DNA of 64,000 nucleotides from an uncultured archaeon (GCA_964430885.1 CAYSHM010000014.1:12307-76306), one strand, 5' to 3'; counted from the first letter of the stretch, positions 15,601 to 63,862 are shown. Notes: generated by a model from the sequence alone, not told the origin. Numbers and translations are program-made.

Positions 15601-17565
15601 GTGAATGATATGGAAAACGAAACCGAACTGGACCAGTGGTTGTCCAAGAAGAAATTCAAGACTACCAAGGACCTGAAAACCCCTAAGCGATTGATGGACC
15701 AAGTCATAGGACAGGACGAGGCAGTGACTGTCGCAAAAAAAGCGGCGCTCCAGCGCAGACATATGGTACTTTTAGGGCCCCCCGGAACAGGTAAATCAAT
15801 GATAGCGAATGCCATGGTCGAACTGCTCCCTCAAGATGAACTTGAGGATTTCATAGTATATCCAAATGAGGAAGATCCCAATAAACCCAAGATCAGGGTA
15901 GTTCCGTCAGGAAAGGGAAAGATCATTGTTGATATGCAGAAGGCGGAGGCCAGGGAAAGAAAGAAGCAGAAGAACAAAGCAAAAATGATGATCATCTTCG
16001 GAGTTGTGGCAATAGCCCTCATGGCATTCCTTTTCTACAGGGAACCCATGATACTCTTCTTCGGACTGATTGCAGCTGCAATGATATACATGGCCATGAG
16101 AGGTGTTGGCCCCCAAAGAGATGAAGATGACACGGTGCCAAAACTTCTGTTATCACAGAAAAACAAGGTTTCGGATAGATTCGTTGATGCAACTGGTGCC
16201 CATGCAGGAGCTTTATTGGGAGATGTGAAGCATGACCCATTCCAATCTGGCGGTCTGGAAACACCTGCCCATGAGAGGGTGGAGATCGGAGCCATACATC
16301 AGGCACATAGGGGTGTTCTTTTCATTGATGAACTCAATCTCCTGAAAATGGAATCCCAACACAGCCTTCTAACAGCCCTCCAGGAAAAACAATTCTCAAT
16401 CACCGGTCAAAGCGAAAGAAGCTCCGGTGCCATGGTTAAAACCGAAAAGGTTCCGTGTGATTTTATATTCATTGGTGCAGGCAATCTGGACTCCATTCGA
16501 TCGGTTCATCCGGCCCTACGTTCCAGAATCAGGGGATACGGATACGAGGTATATATCAATTCCACCATGAAGGACACCAACGAGAACCGAAATAAGATCA
16601 TTCGATTCATAACTCAAGAAGTTAAAAAGGATAGGAATATTCCTCATTTCACCAAAGAAGCGGTTGGTGAAATATTGCTTGAAGCACAGAGAAGGTCCGG
16701 AAGACGCGGAAGGTTGACCCTCCGTTTGCGGGAACTGGGTGGGCTGGTAAGGGTTGCAGGTGATATTGCCATAGAGGAGAAGGCCAAATATGTTAATCTG
16801 GACCATGTGCTGAAGGCAAAAATGATCGCCCGGCCTCTTGAGCAGCAGGTAGCAGATAAGGTTATAGAGCATAAGAAAGACTATGATACATTCTCCGTCA
16901 TAGGCAGCAGGATCGGATGCGTCAATGGTCTGGGCGTGATTGGAGCTGAGGATATGGGCATCACCGATTATTCCGGTGTGATAACCAATATTGCTGCAGA
17001 GATCACCCCGGCAGCTTCAAGAAATGAGGGACGGGTGATCGCTACTGGAAAACTAGGCGAGATAGCAAAGGAAGCGGTTAAGAATATTTCCGCATTGATC
17101 AAGAAGCACACAGGGAAGGACATATCCGATATCGATGTCCACATCCAGTTCATTGGAACATATGAAGGAGTCGAGGGCGATTCAGCATCAATATCAATCG
17201 CCACTGCAGTTGTTTCGGCCCTGGAAAATGTTCCGGTGGATCAATCAGTGGCCATGACCGGTTCCCTGAGTGTTAGAGGCGATGTTCTGCCTGTGGGTGG
17301 AGTTACTCCCAAGATAGAAGCGGCCATCAAAGCCGGTATAAAGAAAGTACTGATCCCCAGAGCAAATTCACAGGATGTGCTTATCGAAAAACGATATAGG
17401 GAAAAGGCCACCATAATCCCGGTTTCCACCTTGGAAGAAGTACTGGAAAATGCTTTTGTTAGAGAGAAAAAGGGTTTGATCGATAAAGTGTCTGAAGTCG
17501 TGACAAAAACGGTGCCCTCAAAAATGATAAGCGGTCCAGTAGCCGGAGAACAATCTCCGGCATGA
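15601..17565 (+). CDS. lonB: Archaeal membrane-bound ATP-dependent protease LonB
   Basis: DQVIGQ, Walker [11 protein letters not shown] insertion, [13 protein letters not shown], catalytic EGDSAS and [12 protein letters not shown]. Confidence 0.97.
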
Positions 17566-17715: not shown

Positions 17716-20700
17716 ATGTTACGGAAAGTAAAACCCTCCATTTCACTTCTGACTGCACTTCTTCTCTTTTTTCCTACAATGCTTACGGTAATCTCAACTA
17801 CAGAATTTCAAGAAGAATTCGATAAGAATACCGATTCCATGACAATTACCTTCTCGGAACCTGGCGAAGAGATTATAGACATGTCCATATATTCCAATTC
17901 AACTTACGATTATTACACATTCAGTGTACATGGTGCCCAGTACAATGGTCAATTCCCATCGAATATATCTATTGACATCGGCAACGACGGTAGTTGGGAA
18001 TGGAACTATGGAAAGGTTTTAGGGAACCTTCACCAGTTGGATTCTGGGTTAGATAGGTATACCTATGATTTCAGTGATGATATTAAACACCAAAATGATC
18101 AGTCAATTTCTATTCCTTTGGATGCGGACATCAGCTCAGCAAGCCTAACCCTATCCCCAAAGGTAACCACTACAGAAACCATGTTCATTGACATAGGCCA
18201 ATATAGGTCCATGGCCAGCACTGACGAAGAATTGTGGATAACTGCAGAAAACGGAGGTTTGATCAAGAGAGATATCATTTCGGGATACCAGCAAGTGTTC
18301 ACAAATGAAGATGGCCTGAACAATTCTGACATATCCTCAGTTGCTATGGACTCGGATTATGTCTATATTGGGTCCAGAACTAGCGGGGTATCCATTTATG
18401 ACCGGGAGGCCGATGATTTTTCTGAGTACCGATGGAATTCAGAAAATGATCTGGAATCGGATGTTATCCGTCATTTATATTCCAATGATGATAAGGTATT
18501 CATTGTTACTGATCTTGCAGTTCAGGTTTTTGACAAGTATGGTGAATTCGGTTCGTTCACTGAGAAATGGGATACCGGCAATGGACCTGATGATGAATTA
18601 ATAAATCTGAATATAAGGGATATTGAAACTACCGCTACCAAGATATATTTTGGCAGTATTTCAGGTCTTTCAATATATGATAGAAATACTGGTTTATGGG
18701 ACTATCTCAAAGTCCAAAATGGATTGAACTCCAATAACATCACTGATATGGTGAGAGATGGAGACCTGCTCTATATTGCAACTGATAATGGTATTAGCTG
18801 TTATGACTCAATAAATAAAGAAATTCTCTGGAAGAGTAAATCCCAGGAACTTACCGGAAAGATTGTCAAAGGACTTACCATTAATGATCAATCCTTGTTT
18901 GCATTGGTGGTTTCTACTGAATACAGCGGAAAGGATGCCATTTGTTCCTTGAACAAAAGCAATGGTAAAAGAAATGGCAACATTTGGTTCAGCGGAAATT
19001 CCATTTTGGAAGGAGAAATTATCTATGAAATAAATTATCACATGGATCACCTATTCATTACAACTCCAACGGGTTTCTTTGATATGGAATTCCCATTCGA
19101 GACATTGATGAAAATAAGCACAACCAATAATCAACCTCCATCTAATAATATCAGGGATTTCCTATATGATTTCAATGAAGAAATCCTATACGTGTCAACG
19201 GATTCTGGTGTGGGAAGATACGACCCTAATCAAAACAGGTTTTTAAATCCTTGGAATAAAATTGGCGGTCTCCCAAGTGATGACGTATATGAATTGGAAC
19301 TCATTGATGATGTGATTTATATCCAAACCAAGAGTTACGGTGTTGCCAGATGGAACATGGAGGAGAAAATTTGGCTTGAACCACTTGATAGATTCTCGGG
19401 ATTGCTATCATCCAGTATATCATCAATAAAAAGCCATGGTCATATGCTCTACATATCCAGCAATAAGGGGGTTGATGCTTACAATACTTCTTCAAATAGA
19501 ATTCAATCCTCATGGGACGCAAGAAATTATTTCAACACCACTACTAGTGATGGGCTCCAGATAAATGAAATATCCGCTGACAGCCAACGAGTGTTTTTTG
19601 CACTTTCTCCAGTATATTCCAATATTGGAGAAATGGAATCTGACGGTGGTTTATGGATTTATGATAAAAATGAACACGATTGGCAGCATTTCAGTAATTC
19701 AAGCGGAGTCAATATGACAAATTTATCATCCAGCTATCTGAAGAGCATATCCCACAGCGGTAATCATTTATTCTTAGGAACCGATAACGGAATAAATATA
19801 TTCGATGTGGAGACCAGTGAAGTTACTATCATTGATAAATCAACAAACAATGAATTCATGGGTCAAGAGATACGAGACCTATATTATGACGATACGGAGG
19901 AACCAAAGTTATACATCTCTATAGGCCCCATCATTAACAACACTGATATGAGTGAGCTGGGCGGCGGACTGATCGTAATGGACCCCGATACCGGTTCAAT
20001 ACTTGATTACTTCAATATTACTAATACAGATTCTTACATGAATACACTGGACATCCAGTCAATAGAAAGGGTTTCAGATATGCTTTATTTGGGCTCTTAT
20101 GTTAAAGGAATTTTAAGATTGGATTTGACAACTCTTGAATTTCTAGATCCTACACCTACAATAGGGGAAAAACAATATCCCCAGGGAGTGAGGTTGGATC
20201 TTGGGGATGACGGAATTACCGAAACTGAGATAAATGTATTTAAAAAACCTGTTGATATTGATATCACGGATGATCTCAATGAGATTCTCGAATTCAGTTC
20301 AAATATCTACCAGGATAATAGCGGGATCGAAAACGCCCTTATTCCAATCAACATATCCCTTAATCCGATGAGTGCTGGGGCAATAATTCTATCCTACATT
20401 AACATTAAATTCAACCATTATTACTCAATTCCAGACATCTCAGAATCTATCAATTCATACCTAGAGAATATCAATCAAACAAATCTAACCCAAGGTGAAT
20501 CTATTGACCGCGTTCCAATCCGAGTCAAATCAGACACTAGCGGTAAATTGGTATTATCCCAGCCAACCATTATCTTTAAATTCTCCAATCCGCCCTTGAT
20601 AAATATTATATCGCCCTTACCCAAGGACCTAGGGACATATTACTGGGATACAGTACCTATCACATTTGACGCATCAGGCACATATGATCCGGATGGAGAT

Positions 20701-22485
20701 TCAATTGAATTCCTTTGGACTTCCGATACCGACAAGTCATTTACCGGTTCCAGCGAGAAATTTACTTACCAATTACCATCCGGAAACCACCAGATAAGCT
20801 TAAATGTCACAGACCCAACAGGAAGATACACATTGCGAACATGGGATGTGAAGGTAAAGAAAAATATAGCTCCCATAGCTGTTATATCCGGCAGCGCAGT
20901 CAATGGAACTCAATTCTATGTAAAAGAAGAAATTCATTTCAGTGCAGGTGGAAGTTACGACGCAAATCCCGAGCAAGATCTGGATTATTCTTGGTATGCA
21001 AAGAAGATTGATGGGGGGACCAGCGAACTATTTTCAATAGGGAATAAAAAGGATTTTGATCATTCTTTCGATCTTTCTGGTACATACAATATCACTCTGG
21101 AAGTAAATGACGGATCACTGAAAGATGAAAGAAAGTTCGATATAGAAATATTATCACACGGCACCACCGAAAGAGAGCTCAGCCTTAACCTAGGAACTAT
21201 GAACGATGTATTTCTAGATTATCTTATCGTCCATTCAACCTATGAACCGTCCAGCGTTGAAATAACTGATCTGAATCTATTTGAGGAAGAATTACTGATT
21301 AACAGTATTCCGCCTAATCAAACTCATATAGGTGTTGGATTTTCAATTATTCAGAATACCAATAATACCGTTTACGAGGAAACAATAAATATCTCCTATA
21401 GTGGACAGGAAGAGTTCCTAGAGAACATTGATGAAAACTCAATAGCTCTGTATATTCTCAAGAATGAAAATGCTGAAGATGAAAGAAAAAGGGATGAAGA
21501 GAACTATAACTGGATAAAATGCCCAATCCTTGACCACAATACAGAGAAGGACTTTATTTATTCAGCCATACCATTGGGATTTACAGATATGTCTTCGAAA
21601 TTCATGCTGCTGTCTAATTCCTCCTATGGATGGACCAGGGGAGTCAAATTATCATTTGTAGAACCGACAGATCCACTCCAGGCCGATCCCGTTAATACTG
21701 TCATTACCTTGCGTTTTGACAAGCCTGTCCTGTCTAGCTACTTCACAGGCGATAAGGCGGATACAAATGTTGAGATACGGGATGAAAAAGGAAGTAAGGT
21801 CCCCATTTCCTATACCCCTAATTTTGATCCCATTGATCAGACTCTAACCATGAAAGTTGATGAATTTGAATATGATTCGGATTATACGATAATTCTGAAA
21901 CAGTTTATGGACCAGTACCGGAATATCGGAAATGACTATTCCTTACAGCTACATACGATTGAGGAGGACAAACCGGATGAGGGAAATAATTGGCTGTTAT
22001 ATGCAGTAATAGGCGGAGCGGTACTTCTAATTGGAGCAGTGGTCTTATTTATTGTGATCAAGAGAAGAGCACCCGATGAAGATTACGAGGAAGACGTTGT
22101 GGAATATTCCTGTCCAAGATGCGGTGTTGTGGTCCTCAGTGAAGAAAAGGAATGTCCAGAATGCGGTTACGAGCTTACAGAAAAAGAAAAAGGAGAGGAC
22201 ATAATAAAAGCAGAATTCATTGATTGTCCAGATTGCGGTAAAAGAATTGATGAAAAATCCCAAATATGCCCGTTCTGCTCCATTTCATTAGTGGAAGACA
22301 CTGAAGAAGAACTTGAAGAGGAACTGCTGTCCGATGAGATCATAGTCGATGCCGAAGAAGCGGACATCCTTTCAGCACAGGGCTCTGGCGGCGCTCCTAT
22401 GGACATGCCCTGTCCGACTTGCGGAGACATGGTGGAAATGGGTACAGTTGAATGTCCATCCTGCGGTGAGGATCAATTCACATAA
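17716..22485 (+). CDS. Giant cell-surface protein: signal peptide, beta-propeller repeats, PKD domains, Ig-like domain, TM anchor, cytoplasmic zinc ribbons
   Basis: N-terminal hydrophobic leader; repeats such as GLNSNNITDM, LYIATDNGIS, GLPSDDVYEL; PKD motifs ITFDASGTYDPDGD and FSAGGSYD; TM WLLYAVIGGAVLLIGAVVLFIVIKRR; three CxxC...CxxC ribbons. Confidence 0.75.
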   Translation: MLRKVKPSISLLTALLLFFPTMLTVISTTEFQEEFDKNTDSMTITFSEPGEEIIDMSIYSNSTYDYYTFSVHGAQYNGQFPSNISIDIGNDGSWEWNYGKVLGNLHQLDSGLDRYTYDFSDDIKHQNDQSISIPLDADISSASLTLSPKVTTTETMFIDIGQYRSMASTDEELWITAENGGLIKRDIISGYQQVFTNEDGLNNSDISSVAMDSDYVYIGSRTSGVSIYDREADDFSEYRWNSENDLESDVIRHLYSNDDKVFIVTDLAVQVFDKYGEFGSFTEKWDTGNGPDDELINLNIRDIETTATKIYFGSISGLSIYDRNTGLWDYLKVQNGLNSNNITDMVRDGDLLYIATDNGISCYDSINKEILWKSKSQELTGKIVKGLTINDQSLFALVVSTEYSGKDAICSLNKSNGKRNGNIWFSGNSILEGEIIYEINYHMDHLFITTPTGFFDMEFPFETLMKISTTNNQPPSNNIRDFLYDFNEEILYVSTDSGVGRYDPNQNRFLNPWNKIGGLPSDDVYELELIDDVIYIQTKSYGVARWNMEEKIWLEPLDRFSGLLSSSISSIKSHGHMLYISSNKGVDAYNTSSNRIQSSWDARNYFNTTTSDGLQINEISADSQRVFFALSPVYSNIGEMESDGGLWIYDKNEHDWQHFSNSSGVNMTNLSSSYLKSISHSGNHLFLGTDNGINIFDVETSEVTIIDKSTNNEFMGQEIRDLYYDDTEEPKLYISIGPIINNTDMSELGGGLIVMDPDTGSILDYFNITNTDSYMNTLDIQSIERVSDMLYLGSYVKGILRLDLTTLEFLDPTPTIGEKQYPQGVRLDLGDDGITETEINVFKKPVDIDITDDLNEILEFSSNIYQDNSGIENALIPINISLNPMSAGAIILSYINIKFNHYYSIPDISESINSYLENINQTNLTQGESIDRVPIRVKSDTSGKLVLSQPTIIFKFSNPPLINIISPLPKDLGTYYWDTVPITFDASGTYDPDGDSIEFLWTSDTDKSFTGSSEKFTYQLPSGNHQISLNVTDPTGRYTLRTWDVKVKKNIAPIAVISGSAVNGTQFYVKEEIHFSAGGSYDANPEQDLDYSWYAKKIDGGTSELFSIGNKKDFDHSFDLSGTYNITLEVNDGSLKDERKFDIEILSHGTTERELSLNLGTMNDVFLDYLIVHSTYEPSSVEITDLNLFEEELLINSIPPNQTHIGVGFSIIQNTNNTVYEETINISYSGQEEFLENIDENSIALYILKNENAEDERKRDEENYNWIKCPILDHNTEKDFIYSAIPLGFTDMSSKFMLLSNSSYGWTRGVKLSFVEPTDPLQADPVNTVITLRFDKPVLSSYFTGDKADTNVEIRDEKGSKVPISYTPNFDPIDQTLTMKVDEFEYDSDYTIILKQFMDQYRNIGNDYSLQLHTIEEDKPDEGNNWLLYAVIGGAVLLIGAVVLFIVIKRRAPDEDYEEDVVEYSCPRCGVVVLSEEKECPECGYELTEKEKGEDIIKAEFIDCPDCGKRIDEKSQICPFCSISLVEDTEEELEEELLSDEIIVDAEEADILSAQGSGGAPMDMPCPTCGDMVEMGTVECPSCGEDQFT

Positions 22486-30832: not shown

Positions 30833-31312
30833 ATGGGAAATGAGGAATTGACTTTCTTATGCGACAGGATGCTGGGGAAATTGTGCAGATGGCTCAGGTT
30901 TTTAGGATTCGATTCGTCATTTACCCCCGATATTAAAGATAGATTAATTATACAAATTGCCCATAGGGAGAATAGAATACTACTGACCCGTGATAAAGGA
31001 ATATCCAGAATGAATCTCATGAATATTGGATTCATGTTGATCCATGCTGTAGATCTGGAATCTCAACTTGCAGAAGTTAACAAAAAGTATGATCTCATTC
31101 AAAATGCGGTTAAAAATGATACGATCCTCAATAGATGTTCTATCTGCAACAATATCCTTATAGAAGCGGAAAAAAAAGTTGTGAAAAAGGGGGTGCCAGA
31201 AGGGATTTTTTCGGTAGAAAACAATTTCTGGCATTGTGGCAAATGCAATAAGTATTATTGGCCAGGAAGTCATTATGAGGAAATACTTAAAAAAATAGAA
31301 ACATTGAAATAA
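30833..31312 (+). CDS. Mut7-C RNase (PIN-like) domain protein with zinc ribbon
   Basis: FLCDRMLGKLCRWLRFLGFD, ILLTRD, RCSICN, CGKCNKYYWPGSHY. Confidence 0.9.
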   Translation: MGNEELTFLCDRMLGKLCRWLRFLGFDSSFTPDIKDRLIIQIAHRENRILLTRDKGISRMNLMNIGFMLIHAVDLESQLAEVNKKYDLIQNAVKNDTILNRCSICNNILIEAEKKVVKKGVPEGIFSVENNFWHCGKCNKYYWPGSHYEEILKKIETLK

Positions 31313-31444
31313 ATCCATGACATTCAATTAAGTCATTATTAATCATTAAAAATTATAGGGAAAAAAAGTATAATATACTTTGATTTGACCTAATCATTCA
31401 GTTCTATTCGAATCAGATATTATTTATTATTATTATTATGGGAA

Positions 31445-32626
31445 GTGTTGGTTTTGGCTGACGATTACTATGGAATACTGGAAATAGATAGGGATGCCTC
31501 GCAGGCTGAAGTAAAGAAAGCATATAGGAGATTAGCTCGAAAATATCATCCGGATGCAAATCCTGATGACCCTTCAGCAGCCGATAAATTCCGTCTTCTA
31601 AAAGAAGCATTCGATATATTATCCGATCCTCTTGAGAGGGATAAATACGACCATCAAGGTCCAGGGGGAGATGACTTCGATAATGATTATGATATGAATA
31701 ATCAGAGTCAGGCTTCATCTTATGGAACGCCGCCGCCTCCATCAAGACCATCTAACGGTTATTATTCCAATGCTGACCAATACAATCAACCACCTAGCAC
31801 CCCTGATCCTAGGCCGCCTACTCCGCACCACCAAGATACTATTGGGATGCAGGCGGGGGCAGACCTGAAATATGACCTAGAGATAACATTTGAGGAAAGT
31901 ATATACGGACTTGAAACAGAACTAGAAGTACCCATAATGGCCGAATGTAATGTATGCCAGGGAATTGGAATCAGACCTGGAGCGCCTCAAGTCCCTTGTG
32001 CGGTTTGCAATGGAATGGGTGAAGTGAGCCAAAATATGTATGGCAGGGGTGGAAGAAATCTTATTTGCGATACCTGTCAAGGTACGGGAATCAGTCCCGA
32101 ATATCTTTGCATGAACTGCCAAGGGAACGGGCGTGTTCGATCTGTCAGGAATGTATATGTCAAGGTTCCACCAGGGGTCGAAAATGGGGCCAGATTGAGA
32201 ATAAGGAATATGGGAGAACCGGGAATTAGAGGGGGGCCTGCAGGCGATTTATATGTTATGATTTACATTCTTGAGCACGACATCTTTGAAAGACATGGTA
32301 ACGAGATACTCTGTGAAGCCACAATCTCATTACTTCAAGCTTCATTAGGAGCGGAAATCGAGGTTCCGACGATAGAAGGAAAAGCGGTTATAAAGATCCC
32401 ACCAGGGACACAGACTGGGACTATCTTCAGATTGAGGGGGAAAGGGGTCCCTGATGTGAGAACAAAAGAAAGAGGGGACCAGCATGTCAAAATTACGGTC
32501 ATTACTCCTACCAATTTGAACAAGAATGCAAAAAATCTGCTCTGGAAATTCGGGAAAGAGATCGGAGAGGACATGGATTCGATCCTAATGCGCAGGGGTA
32601 AATCCAAACCTGCAAGAAAGAGATGA
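31445..32626 (+). CDS. dnaJ: Molecular chaperone DnaJ (class A)
   Basis: J domain DYYGIL...YHPD, four CxxCxGxG repeats, C-terminal GDLYV and IPPGTQTG motifs. Confidence 0.93.
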   Translation: MLVLADDYYGILEIDRDASQAEVKKAYRRLARKYHPDANPDDPSAADKFRLLKEAFDILSDPLERDKYDHQGPGGDDFDNDYDMNNQSQASSYGTPPPPSRPSNGYYSNADQYNQPPSTPDPRPPTPHHQDTIGMQAGADLKYDLEITFEESIYGLETELEVPIMAECNVCQGIGIRPGAPQVPCAVCNGMGEVSQNMYGRGGRNLICDTCQGTGISPEYLCMNCQGNGRVRSVRNVYVKVPPGVENGARLRIRNMGEPGIRGGPAGDLYVMIYILEHDIFERHGNEILCEATISLLQASLGAEIEVPTIEGKAVIKIPPGTQTGTIFRLRGKGVPDVRTKERGDQHVKITVITPTNLNKNAKNLLWKFGKEIGEDMDSILMRRGKSKPARKR

Positions 32627-32700
32627 ATAAAAAGAACTTTCTTTTCAATCTACACTATTATCACAACTAAGTATACTAGCTTTCGTGTGAGGAATAATAT

Positions 32701-33210
32701 ATGGCAAAACTTCCAAAAGATATTCTGAATAAAAGGGTTTCACAAGAGATTGCATTAGCAAAGAGAAAACTGCTGCATATAATCGCAATTGAGGAGGGTG
32801 TGATCGAAGATTTTCCTGTTTCTTTGATGGTTACTCTCATTGATGTCGCAGGCCCGGTCTGGAGAGGAGAAGAATTATCTCATAAAAAAACCCATCAATT
32901 TGAGATAACCATTACCGAGAGCTATCCTTATGAGAAACCTATTGTGAAGTGGAACAGTGAAATATTCCATCCAAATATCAAACTTCCAGAGGATGGAGGT
33001 GATGTCTGTACTAGACTGCTTGACGGTTGGGGATTTCATTCCAATATTCTAGCTTTCATTAAGGGTGTCGAATCCCTCCTTACCAATCCCAATCCTCGAT
33101 CTCCCTGGGGCACTGATTCCTGCACATCTGCAGCCCTTTTCTTCAATACACATGATTATGAACCCCCTGAAGGTAGGATTGATGACATGGGTCCAAAAAT
33201 TGTAAAATAG
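32701..33210 (+). CDS. Ubiquitin-conjugating enzyme E2 (UBC-fold) protein
   Basis: KRVSQEI helix 1, YPYEKP, IFHPNI, GGDVC (catalytic Cys codon 33007-33009), W, SLLTNPNPRSP; collinear with eukaryotic UBE2D-type E2. Confidence 0.88.
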   Translation: MAKLPKDILNKRVSQEIALAKRKLLHIIAIEEGVIEDFPVSLMVTLIDVAGPVWRGEELSHKKTHQFEITITESYPYEKPIVKWNSEIFHPNIKLPEDGGDVCTRLLDGWGFHSNILAFIKGVESLLTNPNPRSPWGTDSCTSAALFFNTHDYEPPEGRIDDMGPKIVK

Positions 33211-33342
33211 AAACCCGTGAAAATCTTAGAAGCTGTTGTGCTGTTAGAAGTTGGATCCTGAATCTTTAAAGGGTAAATGTAACAGACAGAATGGATCAGA
33301 CGGGAAATTGGAAATATTGTATGTTGTGAGTTAATCCACTAT

Positions 33343-34212
33343 CTACATTTTTCTAGCTTTTTGAACCTGTAGAAGATCCTCAGTGGATAATTTCCCGCCT
33401 TCCTTAAACTGCTGAAATATATTCTCTGCCAAACCCTTATCCTTTTTCTTCTTTATCTTCTCAGAAGCCTTCTTCTTCTTACGGATCAATTTACCTAATA
33501 TCTTATCTAAATCACGAATGTGGATGATGTATTGAGTATGAGCCCTGTGTTCAACATCAGCCTTTGTTTTATATTCTACAAATTCCTGCTGTTTCTCATC
33601 ACCCAGTTTTCGATATTTCCGAATATTCTTCTTTGATTCTATCATTTCTTCATGATATTGCTGGGCTTTTTGGGCATACTCATTGACCTTCTGATGTTCA
33701 TCCTCGGCATTCTGATGGACCTCTTTTTTCCTGAGAATGACCTCACGAGTTTTTTCATTCTCTTCAAATTCCCTCTCTCTCTTCCTTATTTTCTCCATCA
33801 GTTCTTTTATTTTATCAATAAGTTCTCTCTCTTTTTTTGAGTCCATCGCTTCGGTCTGCTGTTTCATCTCCAGCTCTTTCACTTCATTACGGAGAGCACC
33901 CATAGAACGACCCATTTTAGGTCTTAATTTGGCCTGCAGTTCTACGATTTTCAGATGAAGTTCCCTGGCTTCCTTATTATATTGGTTCCTTAACTTCTTA
34001 GATTCAAAAACCTTTACGTTCAAATCATCCCTCATCTTCTTGAGATCTCTGCTTCTAGAAAGGTTTTCTCTGACCAGGCTGTTATAATGATCTCGTTCCT
34101 TGGCTTTTATTCTGGTATTCTTGTTTAGATCATTTCTTTTTTGCCGATGTTCTTTAGCCTTATCAGACAAAAATCGTCTTTTCTCTTGTAATCGCTCAGT
34201 AATCTTTCTCAT
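33343..34212 (-). CDS. Archaeal long coiled-coil protein (COG1340-like)
   Basis: KRNDLN/RDDLN/RNQYN heptad repeats, LEMKQQT, C-terminal FKEGGKLSTEDLLQVQK signature. Confidence 0.85.
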   Translation of the reverse strand: MRKITERLQEKRRFLSDKAKEHRQKRNDLNKNTRIKAKERDHYNSLVRENLSRSRDLKKMRDDLNVKVFESKKLRNQYNKEARELHLKIVELQAKLRPKMGRSMGALRNEVKELEMKQQTEAMDSKKERELIDKIKELMEKIRKREREFEENEKTREVILRKKEVHQNAEDEHQKVNEYAQKAQQYHEEMIESKKNIRKYRKLGDEKQQEFVEYKTKADVEHRAHTQYIIHIRDLDKILGKLIRKKKKASEKIKKKKDKGLAENIFQQFKEGGKLSTEDLLQVQKARKM

Positions 34213-34424
34213 CGTATCCTGCCACTAATTCAATATTTTCCCAAAAAGGACTTTCATACATCTTACTCTTAAAAACATATGACCAATGCTTTTATTTAAG
34301 CTACACTTTACTTGCTTACAAATAAACACTCACCAAATCCAAAAGGACTGAAGCGGTAGCGTGAACACTAAAAAACTCTTTAAATCTTTCTATGCTGATT
34401 GATAATAATGGAGATTGAAAAGCT

Positions 34425-35834
34425 TCAATATGAAATATTTCCCTGAAAAGCCTCTTCTATAAGGCGCTCGTATTCTTCTGAAGTGATCTCCCCTTTCTCG
34501 AATTTATCCGCCAACATTTCAAAATAATGCTTCAATTTTTCATCTTCATCCTCAAATTGATAATTATCGTAGGATTCCTCTGAGATGTCCTTAGATTCTT
34601 CGACATTGTCGTCATCATCTAGGGGTACTGCTACAACCTCTTTATCAAACCCTTCGGTTCCCCCGTAATCCAATATTTCTGCTTTGGTTTCAGCCATAGA
34701 CTCCCACTCATCATCTCCAGTATACCTTAGTTCCTCAATGTCTTCTTCGGTGATCTCATGGCCTTCATAGATGTCAACTTCTTCGATCTCCTCTTCCTGA
34801 TCTGCATGAAGATAACTAAGCTGATCATGGGGTGAAACCTCAGAGAAATCATCCTCTTCCAGGTTAGTCAAATCCCGTCTTCTATCGACCTGAGGAGTTC
34901 TAGGGAATTTATCCCTTTTATGTCTAAGATAACAATTTGCGCACATAGCTGGTTCTGAACGTCTTCTCTCACCCCTGAAATCGATCTCGCAAGTGGCACA
35001 GAATAGATTTTCACATTCGTTGCAGCGAATACTCCTATTATCTTTTGATATTGGGTTTCTGCAGTAAGGACATAAATGCGACTCCCTGGCAGGTGTGAAA
35101 TCCAACTCGTCCTCACCATCCGCCTGTGCAAACATGCTCTGTATGTATTTCCGCCTTTCCTGGTACCTCTTATATTCCTCAATAAACTCTTTCTCGGTAG
35201 GAGTTCTTCTGATTGTCGTCGGTCTCAACCCCAGAGGTCCCATTTTCCTCTCTACTATGAAATCTTCCCGATCCTGGGCATATTCAGGAAAATCTCCAAA
35301 CTGTTCTTCAGAATATTCTGTTTGCTGTTTGACCTGCATTTGCTTAGTTTCCTGCTGCGCCTGCTGCTGAGGTTGTGGTTGTTGGGGTTGTTCCTGAATC
35401 TGATTTTGAATCTGCTGGTTTAAGAATGGCGCCTGCTGCTGAGGCTTGGGTTGTTCATTTTGCTGTGGCTGATAACCGCCGTAATTATATACTGAATGGC
35501 TAGAATGATCCACCGCGGGAGAATGATCATATTTATCATCCGCCTCCTCTCGGCATGCCTCTTTGTTTCGAAGGGCCGATTCATTCATAGGGTTTATCTT
35601 CAGGGCCTTATTGAAACATTTCAATGCAGACTCATAATCCTTCATCTTGCTGTAAGCAAGGCCCATATTATTCCAAGCCCCATCATGAGAGGGTCGGTAT
35701 TCCAGAGCCTTCATATAATAAGCAATTGCTGCCGGATAGTTCTTCCGCCTGAACTCATAATTGCCCTTTTCTTTGAACTTCTCTGCCTGGGTTGTTGAGT
35801 CCATATCCCTAGCATAACGACTATCTGCTCTCAT
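34425..35834 (-). CDS. TPR repeats, Q-rich linker, 8-Cys zinc finger, acidic region and SHOCT-like C-terminus
   Basis: TPRs AEKFKEKGN...AWNNMGLAY...KALKINP; CPYC-x12-CNEC-x4-CATC-x15-CANC; terminal LADKFEKGEITSEEYE. Confidence 0.8.
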   Translation of the reverse strand: MRADSRYARDMDSTTQAEKFKEKGNYEFRRKNYPAAIAYYMKALEYRPSHDGAWNNMGLAYSKMKDYESALKCFNKALKINPMNESALRNKEACREEADDKYDHSPAVDHSSHSVYNYGGYQPQQNEQPKPQQQAPFLNQQIQNQIQEQPQQPQPQQQAQQETKQMQVKQQTEYSEEQFGDFPEYAQDREDFIVERKMGPLGLRPTTIRRTPTEKEFIEEYKRYQERRKYIQSMFAQADGEDELDFTPARESHLCPYCRNPISKDNRSIRCNECENLFCATCEIDFRGERRRSEPAMCANCYLRHKRDKFPRTPQVDRRRDLTNLEEDDFSEVSPHDQLSYLHADQEEEIEEVDIYEGHEITEEDIEELRYTGDDEWESMAETKAEILDYGGTEGFDKEVVAVPLDDDDNVEESKDISEESYDNYQFEDEDEKLKHYFEMLADKFEKGEITSEEYERLIEEAFQGNISY

Positions 35835-40156: not shown

Positions 40157-42094
40157 TTAACTGCCCAGTTCAATTACTTCTTTGAGTTCTGTAAAAATAA
40201 GATTCTTCTTTACTTCAGTTACTCTAGCTCTTACCTTATCACCCTTTTCAGCTCCAGGTACAAATATTACATATCCTCCTTCCTTAGCAATACCATCCCC
40301 CATCTTACCCATACTGATGATGGAGATAATTATTTCATCATCAGTTTTTGGATCGGAAATGATCTTCCTCTTACCCTCCATTTTCTTGCTGTGAATCTCA
40401 ATTACTTCCAGTACCTTTGTGAAAACAAGATTGTCTTTAATCTCTTCAACCCGTACCTTGGCAACATCCCCCATGCCCAGATCAGGAACGAAAATCACGA
40501 AATCGCCGATCCTTGCTACCCCATCATTCTTCTTACCCACACCCACCACAGTGATTTCCAATTCCTTTCCTTCTTTAACATCATCGCTATCCAAACCTCT
40601 TTCAGTTCCCTCTTCCAATGCTTCTGGGCAAGCAGCCCGCCTGGAGCAGTTTAAACATTTTCCCAACCTATAATGATTTCTATGTACTTGCTCCCCTGCA
40701 AGATGCCGCAAGATCTCATCAACTTTTCTTTCCAGCATCACTTCCAATTTTGCATCGTAATTTATTTTATATCGGTTTTCTTTTTTCTCACCATACTGTA
40801 TATAACCGTACGGCGGGCGGACCCCGTAGTTATCCTCTACCAATTTTAGATAGGTCGCCAATTGCAGAACATGGGAATAATAAGGACCCTCCGGTACTTT
40901 TCCTGTTTTAACCTCCATGGGTATGTAGTATCCATCCTTCTCAATAATTAGGTCAGGCTTTCCGGATATGTTCAATCTTTTACCATATAGCGTGCTTTCC
41001 TTTTTGATGCCTAAAGAATCGATGTAATCTATCTTACCTTCATTTACGATGCCTTTATCGCTCCTTTCTTTCTTAGAATACCGAATATTCTTAATCAGAT
41101 AGAAAAGAATTAAAAATGCACCAATTAACCACACCATGGCCACAATCAATAATAAATGTCCAAGAATAGATATCTGGTCATCTATCAGGTTATCAATAGC
41201 ATATTCCATTATGAATCCCCATGTGGACAAGAAAAGTGACATCACTACCAGCCAAAGGCTTCCCTTCCTGTATTCCTCCCTTCTTCTTATTAAAAGCCTT
41301 AATAATTCCGATAATGAAAGGTCTTCCAACTCTCTGTGAAAGGCCTTCATATAGATATTGTAATACTGCTTGCTAATGAAATGGACTGAGTTAATGGCTG
41401 AATAAAAGAAGAAAAGTGCGGCTGCAGCCCATATCAAACTGGACCAGATTAGAAGTTTTATTAAAATTGTTAGATTATAATAATTGGTCAATACCGCAAA
41501 TATCCCCAAACCTGAAGCAATGATCGCCGAAGTAATTGTTTTATATTCCGCGTTCTTGAAAATGATGGCAGGTCTGGTTCTGGCACCTTGCCGGGTAAGA
41601 ATGAAATAGAAGAACACCGATAAAACTAGGAAAAATACAGCCCCGAAAATAAAAAGGTGCCTTTCAACCTCCCCGGGCAATCGATCCAATGCTCCAGTGG
41701 ATATGCCCAGTATTATAACAACCATGATAAACCATTTTGCTATCTCCCAAACCTCATGTGGATTCCTTTTCCACCAGGCAGCCATATCTCTTCCTGGCGC
41801 CATCTGAAGGTGTTTTTTTGTATGGCCTTCAAGATAGGCCTTTTTTATCTTCTTGATCTGTCTATCTTTGTATACTACATTTATAAAAAAACTAAAAGCC
41901 AATAGTGCCCACACTATTGAAAAAAGGTTCAGATAAAAAATGATTATTGGAAAATAGCTCTCAGCTCTTGAAAAGTATAACAGGACGCCGAACACACTGA
42001 GCATTATAACAACAATGGAAAACATAATCAACAGGAACTCATATCTTTTTGATTGCTGGTCCATTAAAAATATCTTTCTTGCTGATTTGGCCAA
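40157..42094 (-). CDS. Polytopic membrane protein fused to a Cas4-like PD-(D/E)xK nuclease and two TRAM domains
   Basis: About 8 hydrophobic helices; SGKPD...PMEVKTG...QLATY; HRNH...CLNC...C; two GxxxDG(V/I)A(R/K)xGxx(V)IFVP TRAM repeats. Confidence 0.82.
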   Translation of the reverse strand: MAKSARKIFLMDQQSKRYEFLLIMFSIVVIMLSVFGVLLYFSRAESYFPIIIFYLNLFSIVWALLAFSFFINVVYKDRQIKKIKKAYLEGHTKKHLQMAPGRDMAAWWKRNPHEVWEIAKWFIMVVIILGISTGALDRLPGEVERHLFIFGAVFFLVLSVFFYFILTRQGARTRPAIIFKNAEYKTITSAIIASGLGIFAVLTNYYNLTILIKLLIWSSLIWAAAALFFFYSAINSVHFISKQYYNIYMKAFHRELEDLSLSELLRLLIRRREEYRKGSLWLVVMSLFLSTWGFIMEYAIDNLIDDQISILGHLLLIVAMVWLIGAFLILFYLIKNIRYSKKERSDKGIVNEGKIDYIDSLGIKKESTLYGKRLNISGKPDLIIEKDGYYIPMEVKTGKVPEGPYYSHVLQLATYLKLVEDNYGVRPPYGYIQYGEKKENRYKINYDAKLEVMLERKVDEILRHLAGEQVHRNHYRLGKCLNCSRRAACPEALEEGTERGLDSDDVKEGKELEITVVGVGKKNDGVARIGDFVIFVPDLGMGDVAKVRVEEIKDNLVFTKVLEVIEIHSKKMEGKRKIISDPKTDDEIIISIISMGKMGDGIAKEGGYVIFVPGAEKGDKVRARVTEVKKNLIFTELKEVIELGS

Positions 42095-43648: not shown

Positions 43649-44980
43649 ATGATTCTGGAGAGGATCGATTCGAATATCAATATATGGGTCAGACGGTTGA
43701 TTCCGATGATAGGTGAAAGAGAAAAACGCAATATCTATAAAGGAATGGTTTCCCACTTTATGAGCAATGATGAATACTTCAGAGATGTAAAGATCAAAAA
43801 GGCCATTTCAGAAATGCTAATCCGTCTTCGGGATCTGCTCAATATCGATTATAATGAGCATTGTGAGATTTCCAAGGAAGTGATTATGGAGAAACAAAAT
43901 ACTGAATATATGCCTCCAACAGTCGATATGAAGAATATAAAGAAACCAACCAATAAATATCAATTTGAAGAAAAGACCAGAAATAGAAAATTCGAAGATG
44001 AAATAGGTGCCGACCTTCCAACGGAACCTCCAATTTCCAAAGGAAAGGACTTTGGGAAAAAGGTATTGTTAAATAATGTGTCAATATTGGGGGTTGGCAA
44101 TGCGGGTTTGAATATTCTGAGTGAATTATTTGATAGATATGATAATGAATCAGACGATCTCAATCTTATTGGTTTGGATACCTGTTTAGACGATATTCGT
44201 CAATGCATTATTCCAAATAAAAAGTATATTGGAGCAGGAGTTACTGGAAAGGAAGGAGCCGAAAGAAATAGAATGCTGGGAAAAAAGGCTGGGAAAAAAT
44301 ATCTTGAAAAGCTGGAACCAGTGATTAAAAAAACTGATGCTGTGATTGTGACATTTGGATTAGGTGGGGGAACAGGTACAGGAGCGGGTGTTGAATTGAT
44401 CAAAGGCATCAAGAGATTTAATAAAATGGTCATAGCTATTGTAACCTTGCCATTTAAGGAAGAGGGAGTTATTAAAAAAGAAAACTCCATCGCCGGATTA
44501 AATAAAATGAATGACTATGCCGATAAGGTAATCATCCTGCCAAATGACTATCTTACTTCACTGGACCCTGAATTACCTTTGATAAAGGGATTCCAGATAA
44601 TGGACAAGATCATGGCGCATGCGATTTTCAGAACTCATTCTTTATTACTCAACCACTCAGAAATGAGCACACCATTCTTCAACGGAAAGGACATTTTAAG
44701 TGTCACTTTCGGAAGAGAAGTGGATGTGCTTCGCTGTTGGAATTCCACAAAAGAAGACTTTTTCGATTTTTTCAACAAAGAGAAAATTAAAGAAGTATTG
44801 GTGTTCACCTCCACCACTACTAATATTAGTGAAGGAGAAAAGAGGGATTACAAGAACGAAGTTCATAACACATTCGATTCTGCAGATTCCATCACCTTTG
44901 TCGAGGAAATCCATCCTGATTTAGATACACCTATAGAAATGACTGTTCTATTCGGCCCGTATAATGCCAATCTAAGATAA
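43649..44980 (+). CDS. Divergent FtsZ/tubulin-family protein with N-terminal extension
   Basis: ILGVGNAG, GLGGGTGTGAG signature, IVTLPFKEEG, ILPND; T7 loop and C-terminal domain divergent; start may be ATG 43706. Confidence 0.8.
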   Translation: MILERIDSNINIWVRRLIPMIGEREKRNIYKGMVSHFMSNDEYFRDVKIKKAISEMLIRLRDLLNIDYNEHCEISKEVIMEKQNTEYMPPTVDMKNIKKPTNKYQFEEKTRNRKFEDEIGADLPTEPPISKGKDFGKKVLLNNVSILGVGNAGLNILSELFDRYDNESDDLNLIGLDTCLDDIRQCIIPNKKYIGAGVTGKEGAERNRMLGKKAGKKYLEKLEPVIKKTDAVIVTFGLGGGTGTGAGVELIKGIKRFNKMVIAIVTLPFKEEGVIKKENSIAGLNKMNDYADKVIILPNDYLTSLDPELPLIKGFQIMDKIMAHAIFRTHSLLLNHSEMSTPFFNGKDILSVTFGREVDVLRCWNSTKEDFFDFFNKEKIKEVLVFTSTTTNISEGEKRDYKNEVHNTFDSADSITFVEEIHPDLDTPIEMTVLFGPYNANLR

Positions 44981-61855: not shown

Positions 61856-63862
61856 TCATCCGCTTTTAACAAGATCGTCAATTATATCATCATCAACAAG
61901 ATAAGGCATTGTTACGTGACCAACGTCGCTCTGATGGTTATATCCATCACATACTTCCATAGCATGCTCACACCTTCCCCAGGCTCTACGGGCCACACCT
62001 CCCATCACATCCCACTCCAGAGCATATTTTATAATGTTATCAACCCTTTCACTGCCGTCAAGGACCAAACCAAAACCGCCATTGATTGCTTTACCAATCC
62101 CAACACCCCCCCCATTATGTAGTGCAACCATGCTCATTCCTCTAGCGCAGTTTCCTGCAAAGCATTGAACCGCCATGTCTGCCATAATATTGCTACCATC
62201 CTTAATATTGGAGGTTTCTCTGAAAGGAGAATCTGTGCCTCCAGTATCATGATGATCCCTCCCCAACATTATAGGTCCAATGGAGCCTTCTCTAACCATA
62301 TCATTAAATTTCAATGCGATTCTTATCCTACCTTGAGAATCCTGATATAGAATCCTAGCTTTTGTCCCGACAATTAACTTGTTCTCTTCTGCATTTTTGA
62401 TCCAATAATAATTATCTCTATCCTGGAAACGTCGCCCCCTGTCAATACATGATATTGCCGCCATATCAGTTTTCTGTAAATCGCTATCCTTACCAGAAAG
62501 ACACACCCATCTGAAGGGGCCATAACCATAGTCAAACAGCATGGGCCCCATGATATCCTCTACGTAGGAGGGAAATATGAATCCCTTGGAAGGATCATCT
62601 CTATTCAAGCTTATCTCTTTCACTCCTGCATCATATACCGCCTTCATAAAGGAATTACCGTAATCAAAGAAATAGGCTCCTTTTTCAACAATTCTCTTTA
62701 TCACATTAAAATGAGTCTTTAGACTTTCATTCACCCTTTTTTTAAAATATTCGCGATCTGCTTTTAGTAATCTTGTTCTTTCGGAAAATGATACTCCCTG
62801 TGGACAATAACCTCCATCATAGGGTACGTGGCAGGAGGTTTGGTCAGTCAAAATATTCACGGTAATATTGTTATCATCAATATATTTCAACAGATCCACA
62901 ATATTTCCATGATAGCCAATAGAAACTGCCTTTCCTTCTGTTAAATTAGAATTTGCAATCTCAAATATCTCATTGAGATCACTAGAATATGTAGATAACC
63001 AACCTTGATCTAATCTAGTAACAATCCTAGATATATCAACCTCGGCAATTATTCCCACTCCGCCTGCGATCTCTATGGCTTTTGACTGGGCTCCGCTCAT
63101 TCCACCTAAACCAGATGATACAAATAAAATACCTGATAAATTGGATTTTTCATCGCTCCCGTACATTTTTCTGCAAGCATTCAATAGTGTAGAATAAGTT
63201 CCATGAACTATGCCTTGAGGGCCGATATACATCCATCCGCCAGCGGTCATTTGGCCATAATTTGAAACGCCCAATTGCATAGCTCTATGCCATTGGTCTT
63301 GCTTATCATACATTCCTATCATCAAACCGTTGGTAATAATTAGTCGAGGAGAATTTGGATCGGAAGGGAATAAACCAAGAGGATGACCTGATTCTACTAC
63401 TAGTGTTTGATGGTCCGTGAGAACCTCTAAGTATTTCTTAATCAATCGGTACTGCATCCAATTCTGGCACACCTGGCCTGTTTCACCATAAGTTACAAGT
63501 TCGTAAGGATAGAGAGCAACCTTGAAATCCAAGTTATTATCAATCATAACCTGAATAGCCTTCCCCTCCAAAGATCTTCCTTGATAGTTCTCTATTGGCA
63601 GACCTCTGATCTTTCCTTCAGGTCGAAACCTATAGCCGTATATGCGACCTCTTGTCACCAGTTCGTGGTGAAATTCCTTACTTAATTCTTTATGATGTTT
63701 TTTTGGTATATATCGAAGAGCATTACGGATCGCCAATTTCGTGTCATCTTTGGACAAAGTATATTGACGATCCGGCGCCCTCCTTATACCGCTAACAAAT
63801 TGAGGTTTTTCAGGTAGCTCATCGAAATCTAATTTAAAACTCATTGAAGAACCATTGTTCAT
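61856..63862 (-). CDS. hutU: Urocanate hydratase (long form)
   Basis: GRIYGYRFRP, PYELVTYG, YGQMTAGGWMYIGPQGIVHGT, SGLGGMSGAQ, DQTSCH, GRDHHD, HNGGGVG. Confidence 0.97.
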   Translation of the reverse strand: MNNGSSMSFKLDFDELPEKPQFVSGIRRAPDRQYTLSKDDTKLAIRNALRYIPKKHHKELSKEFHHELVTRGRIYGYRFRPEGKIRGLPIENYQGRSLEGKAIQVMIDNNLDFKVALYPYELVTYGETGQVCQNWMQYRLIKKYLEVLTDHQTLVVESGHPLGLFPSDPNSPRLIITNGLMIGMYDKQDQWHRAMQLGVSNYGQMTAGGWMYIGPQGIVHGTYSTLLNACRKMYGSDEKSNLSGILFVSSGLGGMSGAQSKAIEIAGGVGIIAEVDISRIVTRLDQGWLSTYSSDLNEIFEIANSNLTEGKAVSIGYHGNIVDLLKYIDDNNITVNILTDQTSCHVPYDGGYCPQGVSFSERTRLLKADREYFKKRVNESLKTHFNVIKRIVEKGAYFFDYGNSFMKAVYDAGVKEISLNRDDPSKGFIFPSYVEDIMGPMLFDYGYGPFRWVCLSGKDSDLQKTDMAAISCIDRGRRFQDRDNYYWIKNAEENKLIVGTKARILYQDSQGRIRIALKFNDMVREGSIGPIMLGRDHHDTGGTDSPFRETSNIKDGSNIMADMAVQCFAGNCARGMSMVALHNGGGVGIGKAINGGFGLVLDGSERVDNIIKYALEWDVMGGVARRAWGRCEHAMEVCDGYNHQSDVGHVTMPYLVDDDIIDDLVKSG

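What the first reader, a model, noticed from the sequence alone, without database searches (positions are those of the whole stretch)
30833..35834. Candidate chaperone-coupled ubiquitin-like conjugation locus: Mut7-C, dnaJ, E2 >< coiled coil, TPR/zinc-finger protein
Seen in sequence: within 5 kb lie a Mut7-C RNase, a DnaJ without dnaK/grpE neighbours, an intact E2 only 74 bp downstream on the same strand, and convergently a coiled-coil protein and a TPR + 8-Cys zinc-finger protein. Established: in eukaryotes the E3 CHIP (TPR plus U-box) links Hsp70/Hsp40 clients to UBE2D-type E2s, and bacterial Mut7-C is often fused to a ubiquitin-like domain. Inference: this may be a protein quality-control tagging module unlike the Ub-E1-E2-RING-JAB operons of Caldiarchaeum and Asgard archaea, with the TPR-ZnF protein as E3-like adaptor and the modifier and E1 (SAMP/UbaA-like) supplied in trans. 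No Ubl, E1 or JAB gene is visible in this window, so the linkage could be coincidental.
Basis: partly seen in the sequence, partly recalled or inferred. Interest (0 to 1): 0.8.

Follow-up and report, generated by a model that had tools for sequence, protein, structure and literature searches.

The report
Relocated archaeal E2, chance neighbours
The ubiquitin-conjugating (E2) gene is genuine and belongs to a little-studied protein-tagging system scattered across this archaeon's genome, but the five neighbouring genes are not one chaperone-linked module, because they were brought together by genome rearrangement.

Summary
All five genes are real. The E2 is intact (HPN, Cys103, UBC fold). It is one of two paralogs of a Thermoplasmatota Ubl–E1–E2–JAMM system whose tag, UBA2/3-like E1, JAMMs and 13 RING-like proteins lie on other contigs. 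E1, Ubl and this E2 clade occur in the same 14 of 61 genomes. The module is not supported. Of 80 E2 loci, 75 hold a JAMM, 67 the Ubl, 43 the E1, 3 a dnaJ, and 0 the coiled coil or TPR protein. In 3 of 3 family relatives urocanase separates dnaJ from E2, and the convergent pair lies on another contig. The zinc finger is FYVE-like, not RING/U-box. The TPR keeps 3 of 5 clamp residues, and the E2 lacks CHIP's SPA motif. A residual hint remains: this E2 lineage stays near one dnaJ subfamily in two families, and an E2–JAMM fusion heads grpE–dnaK–dnaJ in a third. The scan noted this system before, on other contigs and genomes.

The parts
32701..33210 (+). E2 (UBC-fold) enzyme, paralog 'E2a' of the Thermoplasmatota Ubl-E1-E2-JAMM system; the real core of the finding
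   Evidence: PF00179 52 bits; phmmer top hits UBE2A/Rad6, E 1e-10 (9); model pLDDT 87 matches E2s in Foldseek; 54% identical to the second E2 on contig C18; pN 0.16 with saturated pS 0.83-0.85 against two relatives
32968..33009 (+). HPN motif (H90-N92) to catalytic Cys103
   Evidence: invariant in 14 of 14 aligned family members; aligns to the active site of UBE2A
31445..32626 (+). Class A DnaJ of a subfamily that in other families sits in a grpE-dnaK2-dnaJ operon; here separated from its dnaK2 (C2) and its grpE homolog (C7)
30833..31312 (+). Stand-alone Mut7-C (PIN-like) RNase, a common archaeal gene; a neighbour by family synteny
   Evidence: PF01927; 47 of 61 genomes; within 2 of 80 E2 loci
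32627..32700 (+). 74-bp spacer at the position where the three relatives carry a 550-aa urocanase gene; likely a scar of its loss
   Evidence: this genome's urocanase is a different, 37%-identical type at 61856-63862 (83, 100)
33211..33342 (.). Junction between two blocks that lie on different contigs in all three family relatives; inferred rearrangement breakpoint
33343..34212 (-). DUF7121 coiled-coil protein, near-universal in the phylum sample; not part of the system
   Evidence: 60 of 61; 0 of 80 E2 loci
34425..35834 (-). TPR (two repeats plus a capping helix, about 35583-35786), Q/P-rich linker, 8-Cys FYVE-like finger (34932-35072), acidic tail; belongs to the DUF7121-OPT block, not to the E2

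Best explanation
The window holds one relocated copy (E2a) of the conjugating enzyme of a Thermoplasmatota ubiquitin-like cascade that is a compact E1-Ubl-E2-JAMM operon in most relatives and is dispersed in this family. Likely mechanism, inferred from homology and not shown at the bench: (1) a JAMM protease trims the 80-aa precursor (C1, ending PEGG-F) to expose Gly-Gly; (2) the UBA2/3-like E1 (C17) adenylates it and holds it on a Cys (candidate C215, after the CxxC); (3) it passes to E2 Cys103; (4) it is transferred to substrate lysines, probably helped by the C4HC3 RING-like domains, most of which sit on the inner tails of predicted single-pass surface proteins; (5) JAMMs remove it. The five neighbouring genes are not a functional unit. 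Mut7-C-dnaJ-E2 is inherited gene order with the intervening urocanase lost, and the coiled-coil/TPR-FYVE block was joined on by a rearrangement in this lineage.
For: Shown: E1 (E<1e-70), Ubl and close-clade E2 (E<1e-40) occur in the same 14 of 61 genomes and in none of the other 47; kin are not independent. Of 80 E2 loci from genome contigs, JAMM is in 75, Ubl 67, E1 43, dnaJ 3, Mut7-C 2, DUF7121 0, TPR-finger 0; 56 have at least 4 kb upstream and 65 at least 3 kb downstream. The 3 dnaJ loci repeat gene orders already seen. In 3 of 3 family relatives the order is rSAM-ribD-Mut7C-dnaJ-urocanase-E2, while DUF7121-TPR-finger-OPT is an intact block on another contig with other genes beyond DUF7121. 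E2a orthologs in another family follow gyrA. The finger folds and scores as FYVE. The C4HC3 family's top PDB hits are RING-H2 E3s (RNF165, AMFR; E 6e-7). It has 18 domains in 13 proteins here, and a member ends the gene directly upstream of (Ubl)-E2-JAMM in 5 loci and flanks an E2 in one more arrangement. The E2 keeps loop-4 PY (P76-Y77), which Caldiarchaeum E2 needs for RING-dependent transfer (PMC5654768 passages).
Against: E2a stays near the same dnaJ subfamily in two families (0-2 kb in 4 genomes; 17 kb in G014 with unrelated genes between), and a different E2 (an E2-JAMM fusion) directly precedes grpE-dnaK-dnaJ in G005. The finger family is enriched in E2-clade genomes (10 of 14 against 6 of 47; profile built partly from these genomes). 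RING-like domains are not E2-specific: 26 of 47 genomes without this E2 clade have one copy, and one E2-clade genome has none. Only 4 of 80 E2 loci hold a RING-like domain. Loop 7 is WGFH, not the canonical WSPA, so RING docking may be atypical. No biochemistry or expression data.
Confidence: 0.8

Rival explanations
1. E2a is a paralog specialised for chaperone-coupled quality control. It works with this DnaJ subfamily and its DnaK2, with RING-like or RING-J-domain proteins (not the TPR-FYVE protein) as ligases, and the lasting closeness to dnaJ reflects co-regulation.
For: The E2a clade (support 97/96) lies 0-17 kb from the same dnaJ subfamily in 5 genomes of 2 families. An E2-JAMM fusion precedes grpE-dnaK-dnaJ in G005. 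Genes with RING-like domains precede a chaperonin-like gene (label recalled, not tested) and a dnaJ in G040 and G051. This genome encodes a surface protein with a RING-like domain and a C-terminal J-like domain (C32:3451-7143; J score 26.4, just under the cut-off for the whole protein).
Against: Intervening genes are unrelated housekeeping genes (urocanase; gyrB, gyrA and others). The G005 E2s are outside the E2a clade (85). In G008 no E2 lies within about 9 kb either side of this dnaJ. With 10 J-domain genes and 2 DnaK in this genome, chance proximity is easier. Inherited macro-synteny explains the two-family signal. 77 of 80 E2 loci have no dnaJ.
Confidence: 0.14
2. One reading: the TPR-finger protein binds DnaK through its TPR and E2 through its finger, tagging chaperone clients; Mut7-C and the coiled coil belong to the module.
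For: Adjacency in this genome. The TPR keeps K21, N25 and N56 of the K5N9-N6-K2R6 clamp (PMC2939883 passages; positions read), and clamp-type TPRs (STIP1, TOM71, SGTA, PP5) are among the PDB hits. The C7 DnaK ends in an acidic DDLD. The first half of the finger profile also matches RNF4 RING and IBR fragments. The finger family is enriched in E2 genomes.
Against: Not adjacent to E2 in 3 of 3 relatives or in any of 80 loci. The full-length finger matches are FYVE; profile-profile against the RING-like family gives probability 13%. No U-box in the genome. Only two repeats plus a cap, with S86 and N90 in place of the last two clamp residues. CHIP needs Ser-Pro-Ala on its E2 (PMC4017836 passage) and this E2 has W-G-F-H. 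The DnaK paired with this dnaJ subfamily is DnaK2, whose tail is a zinc ribbon, partly unresolved in the assembly.
Confidence: 0.04
3. E2a is a degenerate or repurposed copy (a UEV-like scaffold), no longer charged with the Ubl.
For: It is separated from all cognate genes, and a second E2 next to a double JAMM could serve the pathway.
Against: Cys103, HPN and PY are invariant. 73-76% identity across the family with saturated synonymous sites. Both paralogs are kept in 4 of 4 family genomes.
Confidence: 0.02

Closest known systems
Caldiarchaeum subterraneum / Asgard Ub-E1-E2-RING-Rpn11 operon (PMC5654768 and PMC6043591, passages and section 6 read)
   Same: GG-plus-extension precursor needing JAMM processing; UBA2/3-like single-chain E1; UBC-fold E2 with HPN, Cys and loop-4 PY; Rpn11-like JAMM; RING-like candidates
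   Different: The Ubl scores only 18 bits against ubiquitin (below the cut-off). The E2 loop 7 is W-x-F, not WSPA/S. The RING-like domains are C4HC3 and mostly on large predicted membrane proteins, not small RING-H2 proteins in the operon. Genes are dispersed and E2 duplicated in this family.
Prokaryotic JAMMs in operons with Ub, E1 and E2 but no E3, including the 'JAMM-3' group (Fuchs et al., PMC6043591 section 6), and the 'Ca. Thermoplasmatota E2' clade (bioRxiv 10.1101/2023.07.25.550441, one passage)
   Same: An E1-Ubl-E2-JAMM cassette without an adjacent E3; the E2 clade is very likely the one that preprint places deep among archaeal E2s
   Different: Neither text seen describes the cassette's parts, its dispersal or its RING-like expansion. 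Whether these JAMMs fall in JAMM-3 was not tested.
CHIP/STUB1 (TPR + coiled coil + U-box) with UBE2D/Ubc13 and Hsp70/Hsp40
   Same: An N-terminal TPR with part of the carboxylate clamp; a zinc/E3-like C-terminal domain was proposed; a DnaJ nearby
   Different: No U-box or RING in the protein (FYVE-like finger); two repeats rather than three; 3 of 5 clamp residues; the E2 lacks SPA; the linkage is not conserved
SAMP/UbaA sampylation (Haloferax; recalled, and review PMC11354881 passage)
   Same: A MoaD-like protein ending GG and a MoeB-like E1 exist in this genome (C8)
   Different: Sampylation needs no E2. The E1 and Ubl that co-distribute with this E2 are the C17 and C1 proteins, not the C8 pair.

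Membership tests
UBC-fold E2 enzymes | UBC fold | tested here: met
   PF00179 over cut-off; model pLDDT 87, Foldseek hits all E2s, TM 0.5-0.7
UBC-fold E2 enzymes | HPN motif and catalytic Cys | tested here: met
   H90-P91-N92 and C103, invariant in 14 of 14
UBC-fold E2 enzymes | Forms a thioester with a Ubl | not testable with these tools
   needs reconstitution
Thermoplasmatota E1-Ubl-E2-JAMM system | E2 in the clade found in E1-Ubl-E2-JAMM operons | tested here: met
   44-76% identity to 80 loci, 75 with JAMM and 67 with Ubl; tree
Thermoplasmatota E1-Ubl-E2-JAMM system | Cognate Ubl, E1 and JAMM in the same genome | tested here: met
   C1 Ubl + JAMM, C17 E1, C18 E2 + double JAMM; 14 of 14 co-occurrence
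Caldiarchaeum/Asgard-type Ub operon | Ub, E1, E2 and small RING in one operon | tested here: not met
   parts lie on four contigs; the strict C3HC4/C3H2C3 pattern found 0 matches among the genome's ORFs of 80 aa or more
Caldiarchaeum/Asgard-type Ub operon | E2 loop-4 PY and loop-7 PS/PA for RING docking | tested here: inconclusive
   PY kept, loop 7 is WGFH
CHIP-type chaperone-dependent E3 | U-box or RING domain | tested here: inconclusive
   best full-length matches are FYVE by fold and profile; a few RING chains appear lower in the lists (Z 2.8-3.9), so the cross-brace kinship is not excluded; PF04564 not found in the genome
CHIP-type chaperone-dependent E3 | Three-motif TPR with K5N9-N6-K2R6 clamp | tested here: not met
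   two repeats plus a cap; K21, N25, N56 present, S86 and N90 differ
CHIP-type chaperone-dependent E3 | Partner E2 with Ser-Pro-Ala motif | tested here: not met
   W110-G-F-H aligns to W-S-P-T of UBE2A
CHIP-type chaperone-dependent E3 | Binds Hsp70 C-terminus and ligates clients | not testable with these tools
   needs binding and conjugation assays
Conserved five-gene module | Linkage kept across lineages | tested here: not met
   DUF7121 and TPR-finger in 0 of 80 E2 loci; on other contigs in 3 of 3 relatives
Ub-Mut7C fusion family | Ubl domain fused N-terminal to Mut7-C | tested here: not met
   159-aa stand-alone Mut7-C; PF14451 0 matches in a 92%-complete genome
JAMM-3 group of Fuchs et al. 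| Clusters with JAMM-3 sequences | not tested
   member list not seen; supplements not read

The most novel reading that the evidence does not exclude
After its operon broke up, this archaeal ubiquitin-like system duplicated its E2, and one copy (E2a) became tied to a second Hsp70 machine (GrpE2-DnaK2-this DnaJ), giving an archaeal chaperone-coupled tagging pathway. Its ligases would be the C4HC3 RING-like proteins, including a RING-plus-J-domain membrane protein, rather than the neighbouring TPR-FYVE protein.
Probability: 0.15. Interest if true: 0.8.

Novelty: new variant of a known kind. Interest (0 to 1): 0.4.

Why it matters
The locus itself is ordinary gene shuffling, and showing that removes a false CHIP-like lead. 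The system behind the E2 matters more. It is a complete eukaryote-style E1/E2/JAMM cascade outside Asgard and TACK archaea, found here in 14 of 61 sampled Thermoplasmatota genomes, with duplicated E2s and up to tens of RING-like domains per genome. The searches below found only passing mentions of it and no experiment. Two E2 paralogs with one E1 and one Ubl give a small, reconstitutable test of how E2/E3 specificity diversified in a prokaryote. If E2a proved chaperone-coupled, it would be an archaeal parallel to eukaryotic protein quality control.

Tried and rejected
Complex prediction E2 + finger + 2 Zn: no answer (scores 0.01 and 0.00, mark 0.32), not used either way. Homolog search on the finger region of the 5.8-billion set returned 1 protein from 2 candidates, 100% identical in that region, so it was uninformative. 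The bacterial promoter/terminator scan matched chance (19 against 16.5; 4 against 4.4) and does not cover archaeal promoters. The strict RING pattern gave 0 matches. The metagenome scan with the E2a alignment gave 13 loci. One has the family order with urocanase and looks like a near-duplicate of an arrangement already counted; five are too short upstream (under 500 bp) with no query gene other than E2 or an unrelated one; none has DUF7121 or the TPR-finger. The finger profile hit 1 of 31 fetched E2 loci weakly (60-residue frame, E 0.002), and a generic 1612-aa TPR protein lies near one E2; both were judged incidental. RING families were not among the top fold matches of the finger; this does not exclude them. 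SAMP/UbaA as partners: rejected on co-distribution and PDB ranking. Literature searches found no paper describing a dnaJ-linked archaeal E2 or this system as a whole. The library lacks most subscription journals, and supplements were not read (those of bioRxiv are closed), so a listing there may have been missed.
Full report
Observation. The five ORFs are as described. Pfam gives Mut7-C, a complete class A DnaJ, UQ_con, DUF7121 and TPR repeats; the 8-Cys finger has only weak FYVE, B-box and IBR scores. The dnaJ-E2 gap is 74 bp. The E2 has HPN at 90-92 and Cys103, aligned to UBE2A, a confident UBC model, and purifying selection against two relatives (pN 0.16, pS 0.83-0.85). The window is on contig C14 of a 3.13-Mb, 92%-complete genome. 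Related E2 loci are titled Thermoplasmatota, Thermoplasmata, Methanomassiliicoccales and similar.

The rest of the system is in the genome. There is a second E2 (C18; 54% identical) followed by a double-JAMM protein. An 80-aa ubiquitin-like precursor ending PEGG-F precedes another JAMM on C1. An E1 on C17 has UBA2, UBA3 and UBA1 as best solved relatives, ahead of MoeB, and a separate MoeB/MoaD pair lies on C8. Over 61 genomes (own, 3 same family, 33 same class, 24 same phylum), E2 matched 18. Of these, 14 form a close clade (E<1e-40) and 4 are divergent with their own cassettes. The Ubl and the C17-type E1 (E<1e-70) were found in exactly those 14. These genomes are kin and many are incomplete, so this is co-inheritance, not a statistical test.

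Neighbourhood test. A scan of genome contigs found 525 relatives, of which the best 80 were kept. Within up to 7 kb: JAMM 75, Ubl 67, E1 43, dnaJ 3, Mut7-C 2, DUF7121 0, TPR-finger 0 of 80. 56 loci have at least 4 kb upstream and 65 at least 3 kb downstream; some loci come from the same assembly. The usual order is E1-Ubl-E2-JAMM. In all three family relatives the order is rSAM-ribD-Mut7C-dnaJ-urocanase-E2, so the 74-bp adjacency most simply reflects loss of urocanase; this genome carries a different urocanase 29 kb away. In the same three, DUF7121-TPR-finger-196aa-OPT-131aa-SAM hydrolase is an intact block on another contig, with unrelated genes beyond DUF7121, while the E2 is 30-71 kb from the downstream end of its own contig. 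The convergent junction is therefore specific to this lineage among those seen. DUF7121 is in 60 of 61 genomes and Mut7-C in 47 of 61.

The TPR-finger protein as E3. Twelve finger sequences share eight invariant Cys (47). The model (pLDDT 82) matches FYVE domains first in Foldseek (best E 5e-3, none under 1e-3) and VIA-align (Z 4.8, rmsd 3.6 over 53 residues for 2yw8), with PHD fingers close behind. The profile's best full-length PDB hit is the ALFY FYVE (E 3e-8), with half-length matches to the RNF4 RING. These scores are modest; FYVE-like is the best reading, not a proof. No U-box was found in the genome. The TPR has two repeats and a cap, with 3 of 5 clamp residues by the K5N9-N6-K2R6 rule (PMC2939883, passages). 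CHIP needs Ser-Pro-Ala on its E2 (PMC4017836, one passage); this E2 has WGFH. That profile was built from four E2-clade family genomes plus G014, G016, G028 and G046, and the domain also appears in a kinase-like and other proteins.

Better E3 candidates. A C4HC3 pattern finds 18 domains in 13 proteins of this genome. One protein passes the Prok-RING_1 cut-off (29.2 bits), and the family profile ranks RING-H2 E3s first in the PDB. By a crude hydropathy scan 11 of 13 have an N-terminal hydrophobic stretch, and 8 have a second one hundreds of residues later, just before the domain. Copies number 2 or more in 12 of 14 E2-clade genomes and in 0 of 47 others, but 26 of those 47 have a single copy and one E2-clade genome has none. 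That profile was built from four E2-clade genomes and two loci, and counts in the largest genomes are lower bounds. The domain ends the gene directly upstream of Ubl-E2-JAMM or E2-JAMM in L046, L047, L190, L191 and L199 and flanks an E2 in L069/L196; that is 4 of 80 and 3 of 31 loci. The E2 retains loop-4 PY, needed for RING-dependent transfer in Caldiarchaeum (PMC5654768, passages). E3 activity of these domains is inference.

The dnaJ link. The genome has 10 J-domain matches and two DnaKs. The window DnaJ falls outside the clade (100/99) holding the other paralogs (30 rows, one fragment and none other left out). Its closest homologs sit in grpE-dnaK2-dnaJ in G005, G007, G010 and G014, and in dnaK2-dnaJ in G008 and G012, so it is an orphan of a broken operon. 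The window E2 groups with family orthologs and two from family f8 (97/96; 53 rows, 18 of the 80 loci included). In G014 that E2 follows gyrA, 17 kb from this dnaJ; in G010 the contigs do not join. In G005 an E2-JAMM fusion of another lineage precedes grpE-dnaK-dnaJ. This could be inherited macro-synteny plus one coincidence, or a weak trace of co-regulation; I give the latter about 0.15.

Comparison with what is known. It works like the Caldiarchaeum cascade but is not a member of that operon type (dispersed, different Ubl, no small RING in cis). Fuchs et al. note prokaryotic JAMMs in Ub-E1-E2 operons without E3 (PMC6043591, section 6 read). A preprint places a 'Ca. Thermoplasmatota E2' clade deep among archaeal E2s (10.1101/2023.07.25.550441, passage). 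A 2024 review has 0 occurrences of 'thermoplasm' (PMC11354881), and the 12 of 24 passages shown from an ESCRT survey make no Thermoplasmata-ubiquitin link (PMC11188069). Searches gave no description of the system or of a dnaJ link. Earlier notes of this scan reached the same view of the system on other DNA; they are not independent support.

Verdict. Observation confirmed; the module interpretation is not supported. The E2 is a real, conserved paralog of an uncharacterised archaeal ubiquitin-like system. Interest 0.4, nearly all owed to the system rather than to this gene cluster.

Noticed in passing
L122:452-4144 (G000 C32:3451-7143): 1230-aa predicted surface protein: PKD domains, membrane helix, C4HC3 RING-like domain and a C-terminal J-like domain with HPD; a better candidate for chaperone-coupled ligation than the window's TPR protein.
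   Followed up: partly
L069:4554-13912: RING-like protein and E2 on one strand; E2-JAMM-beta-propeller fusion, grpE, dnaK and dnaJ on the other.
   Followed up: partly
L046:2-9469; L047; L190; L191; L199: Helical proteins of more than 1,800 to more than 2,500 aa ending in a RING-like domain directly upstream of (Ubl)-E2-JAMM; no Pfam match for the L046 protein.
   Followed up: partly
L133 (G000 C2:44879-47002): Second DnaK with a long tail ending in a zinc ribbon; homologs of 776-885 aa form a second dnaK-dnaJ operon across the class.
   Followed up: partly
L253:8004-15754; L254:230-5342: Membrane proteins with RING-like domains followed on the same strand by a chaperonin-like gene (label recalled) and dnaJ in two related genomes.
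   Followed up: no
L053:2756-4354; L054; L055; L056: A second, divergent Ubl-E2-E1(-JAMM) cassette type in four genomes that lack the main clade.
   Followed up: no
L048:6214-7319; L064:6418-8490; L067:738-3905: One genome has 7 E2 matches, including tandem copies and fusions to JAMM or long C-terminal regions.
   Followed up: no
window 40157-42094 (-): Membrane protein fused to a Cas4-like PD-(D/E)xK nuclease and two TRAM domains.
   Followed up: no
window 61856-63862 (-): 668-aa long-type urocanase, only 37% identical to the 550-aa urocanase that relatives carry between dnaJ and E2; possible replacement.
   Followed up: partly
window 17716-22485 (+): 1589-aa surface protein with PKD and propeller domains and C-terminal zinc ribbons, beside a Lon protease gene at 15601-17565.
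   Followed up: no
window 43649-44980 (+): Tubulin/FtsZ-family GTPase with a 140-residue N-terminal extension.
   Followed up: no
L105:8209-10230; L106; L107: Orthologs of the TPR-finger protein are 670-720 aa with an extra N-terminal zinc ribbon and a charged helical stretch that the window copy lacks.
   Followed up: partly
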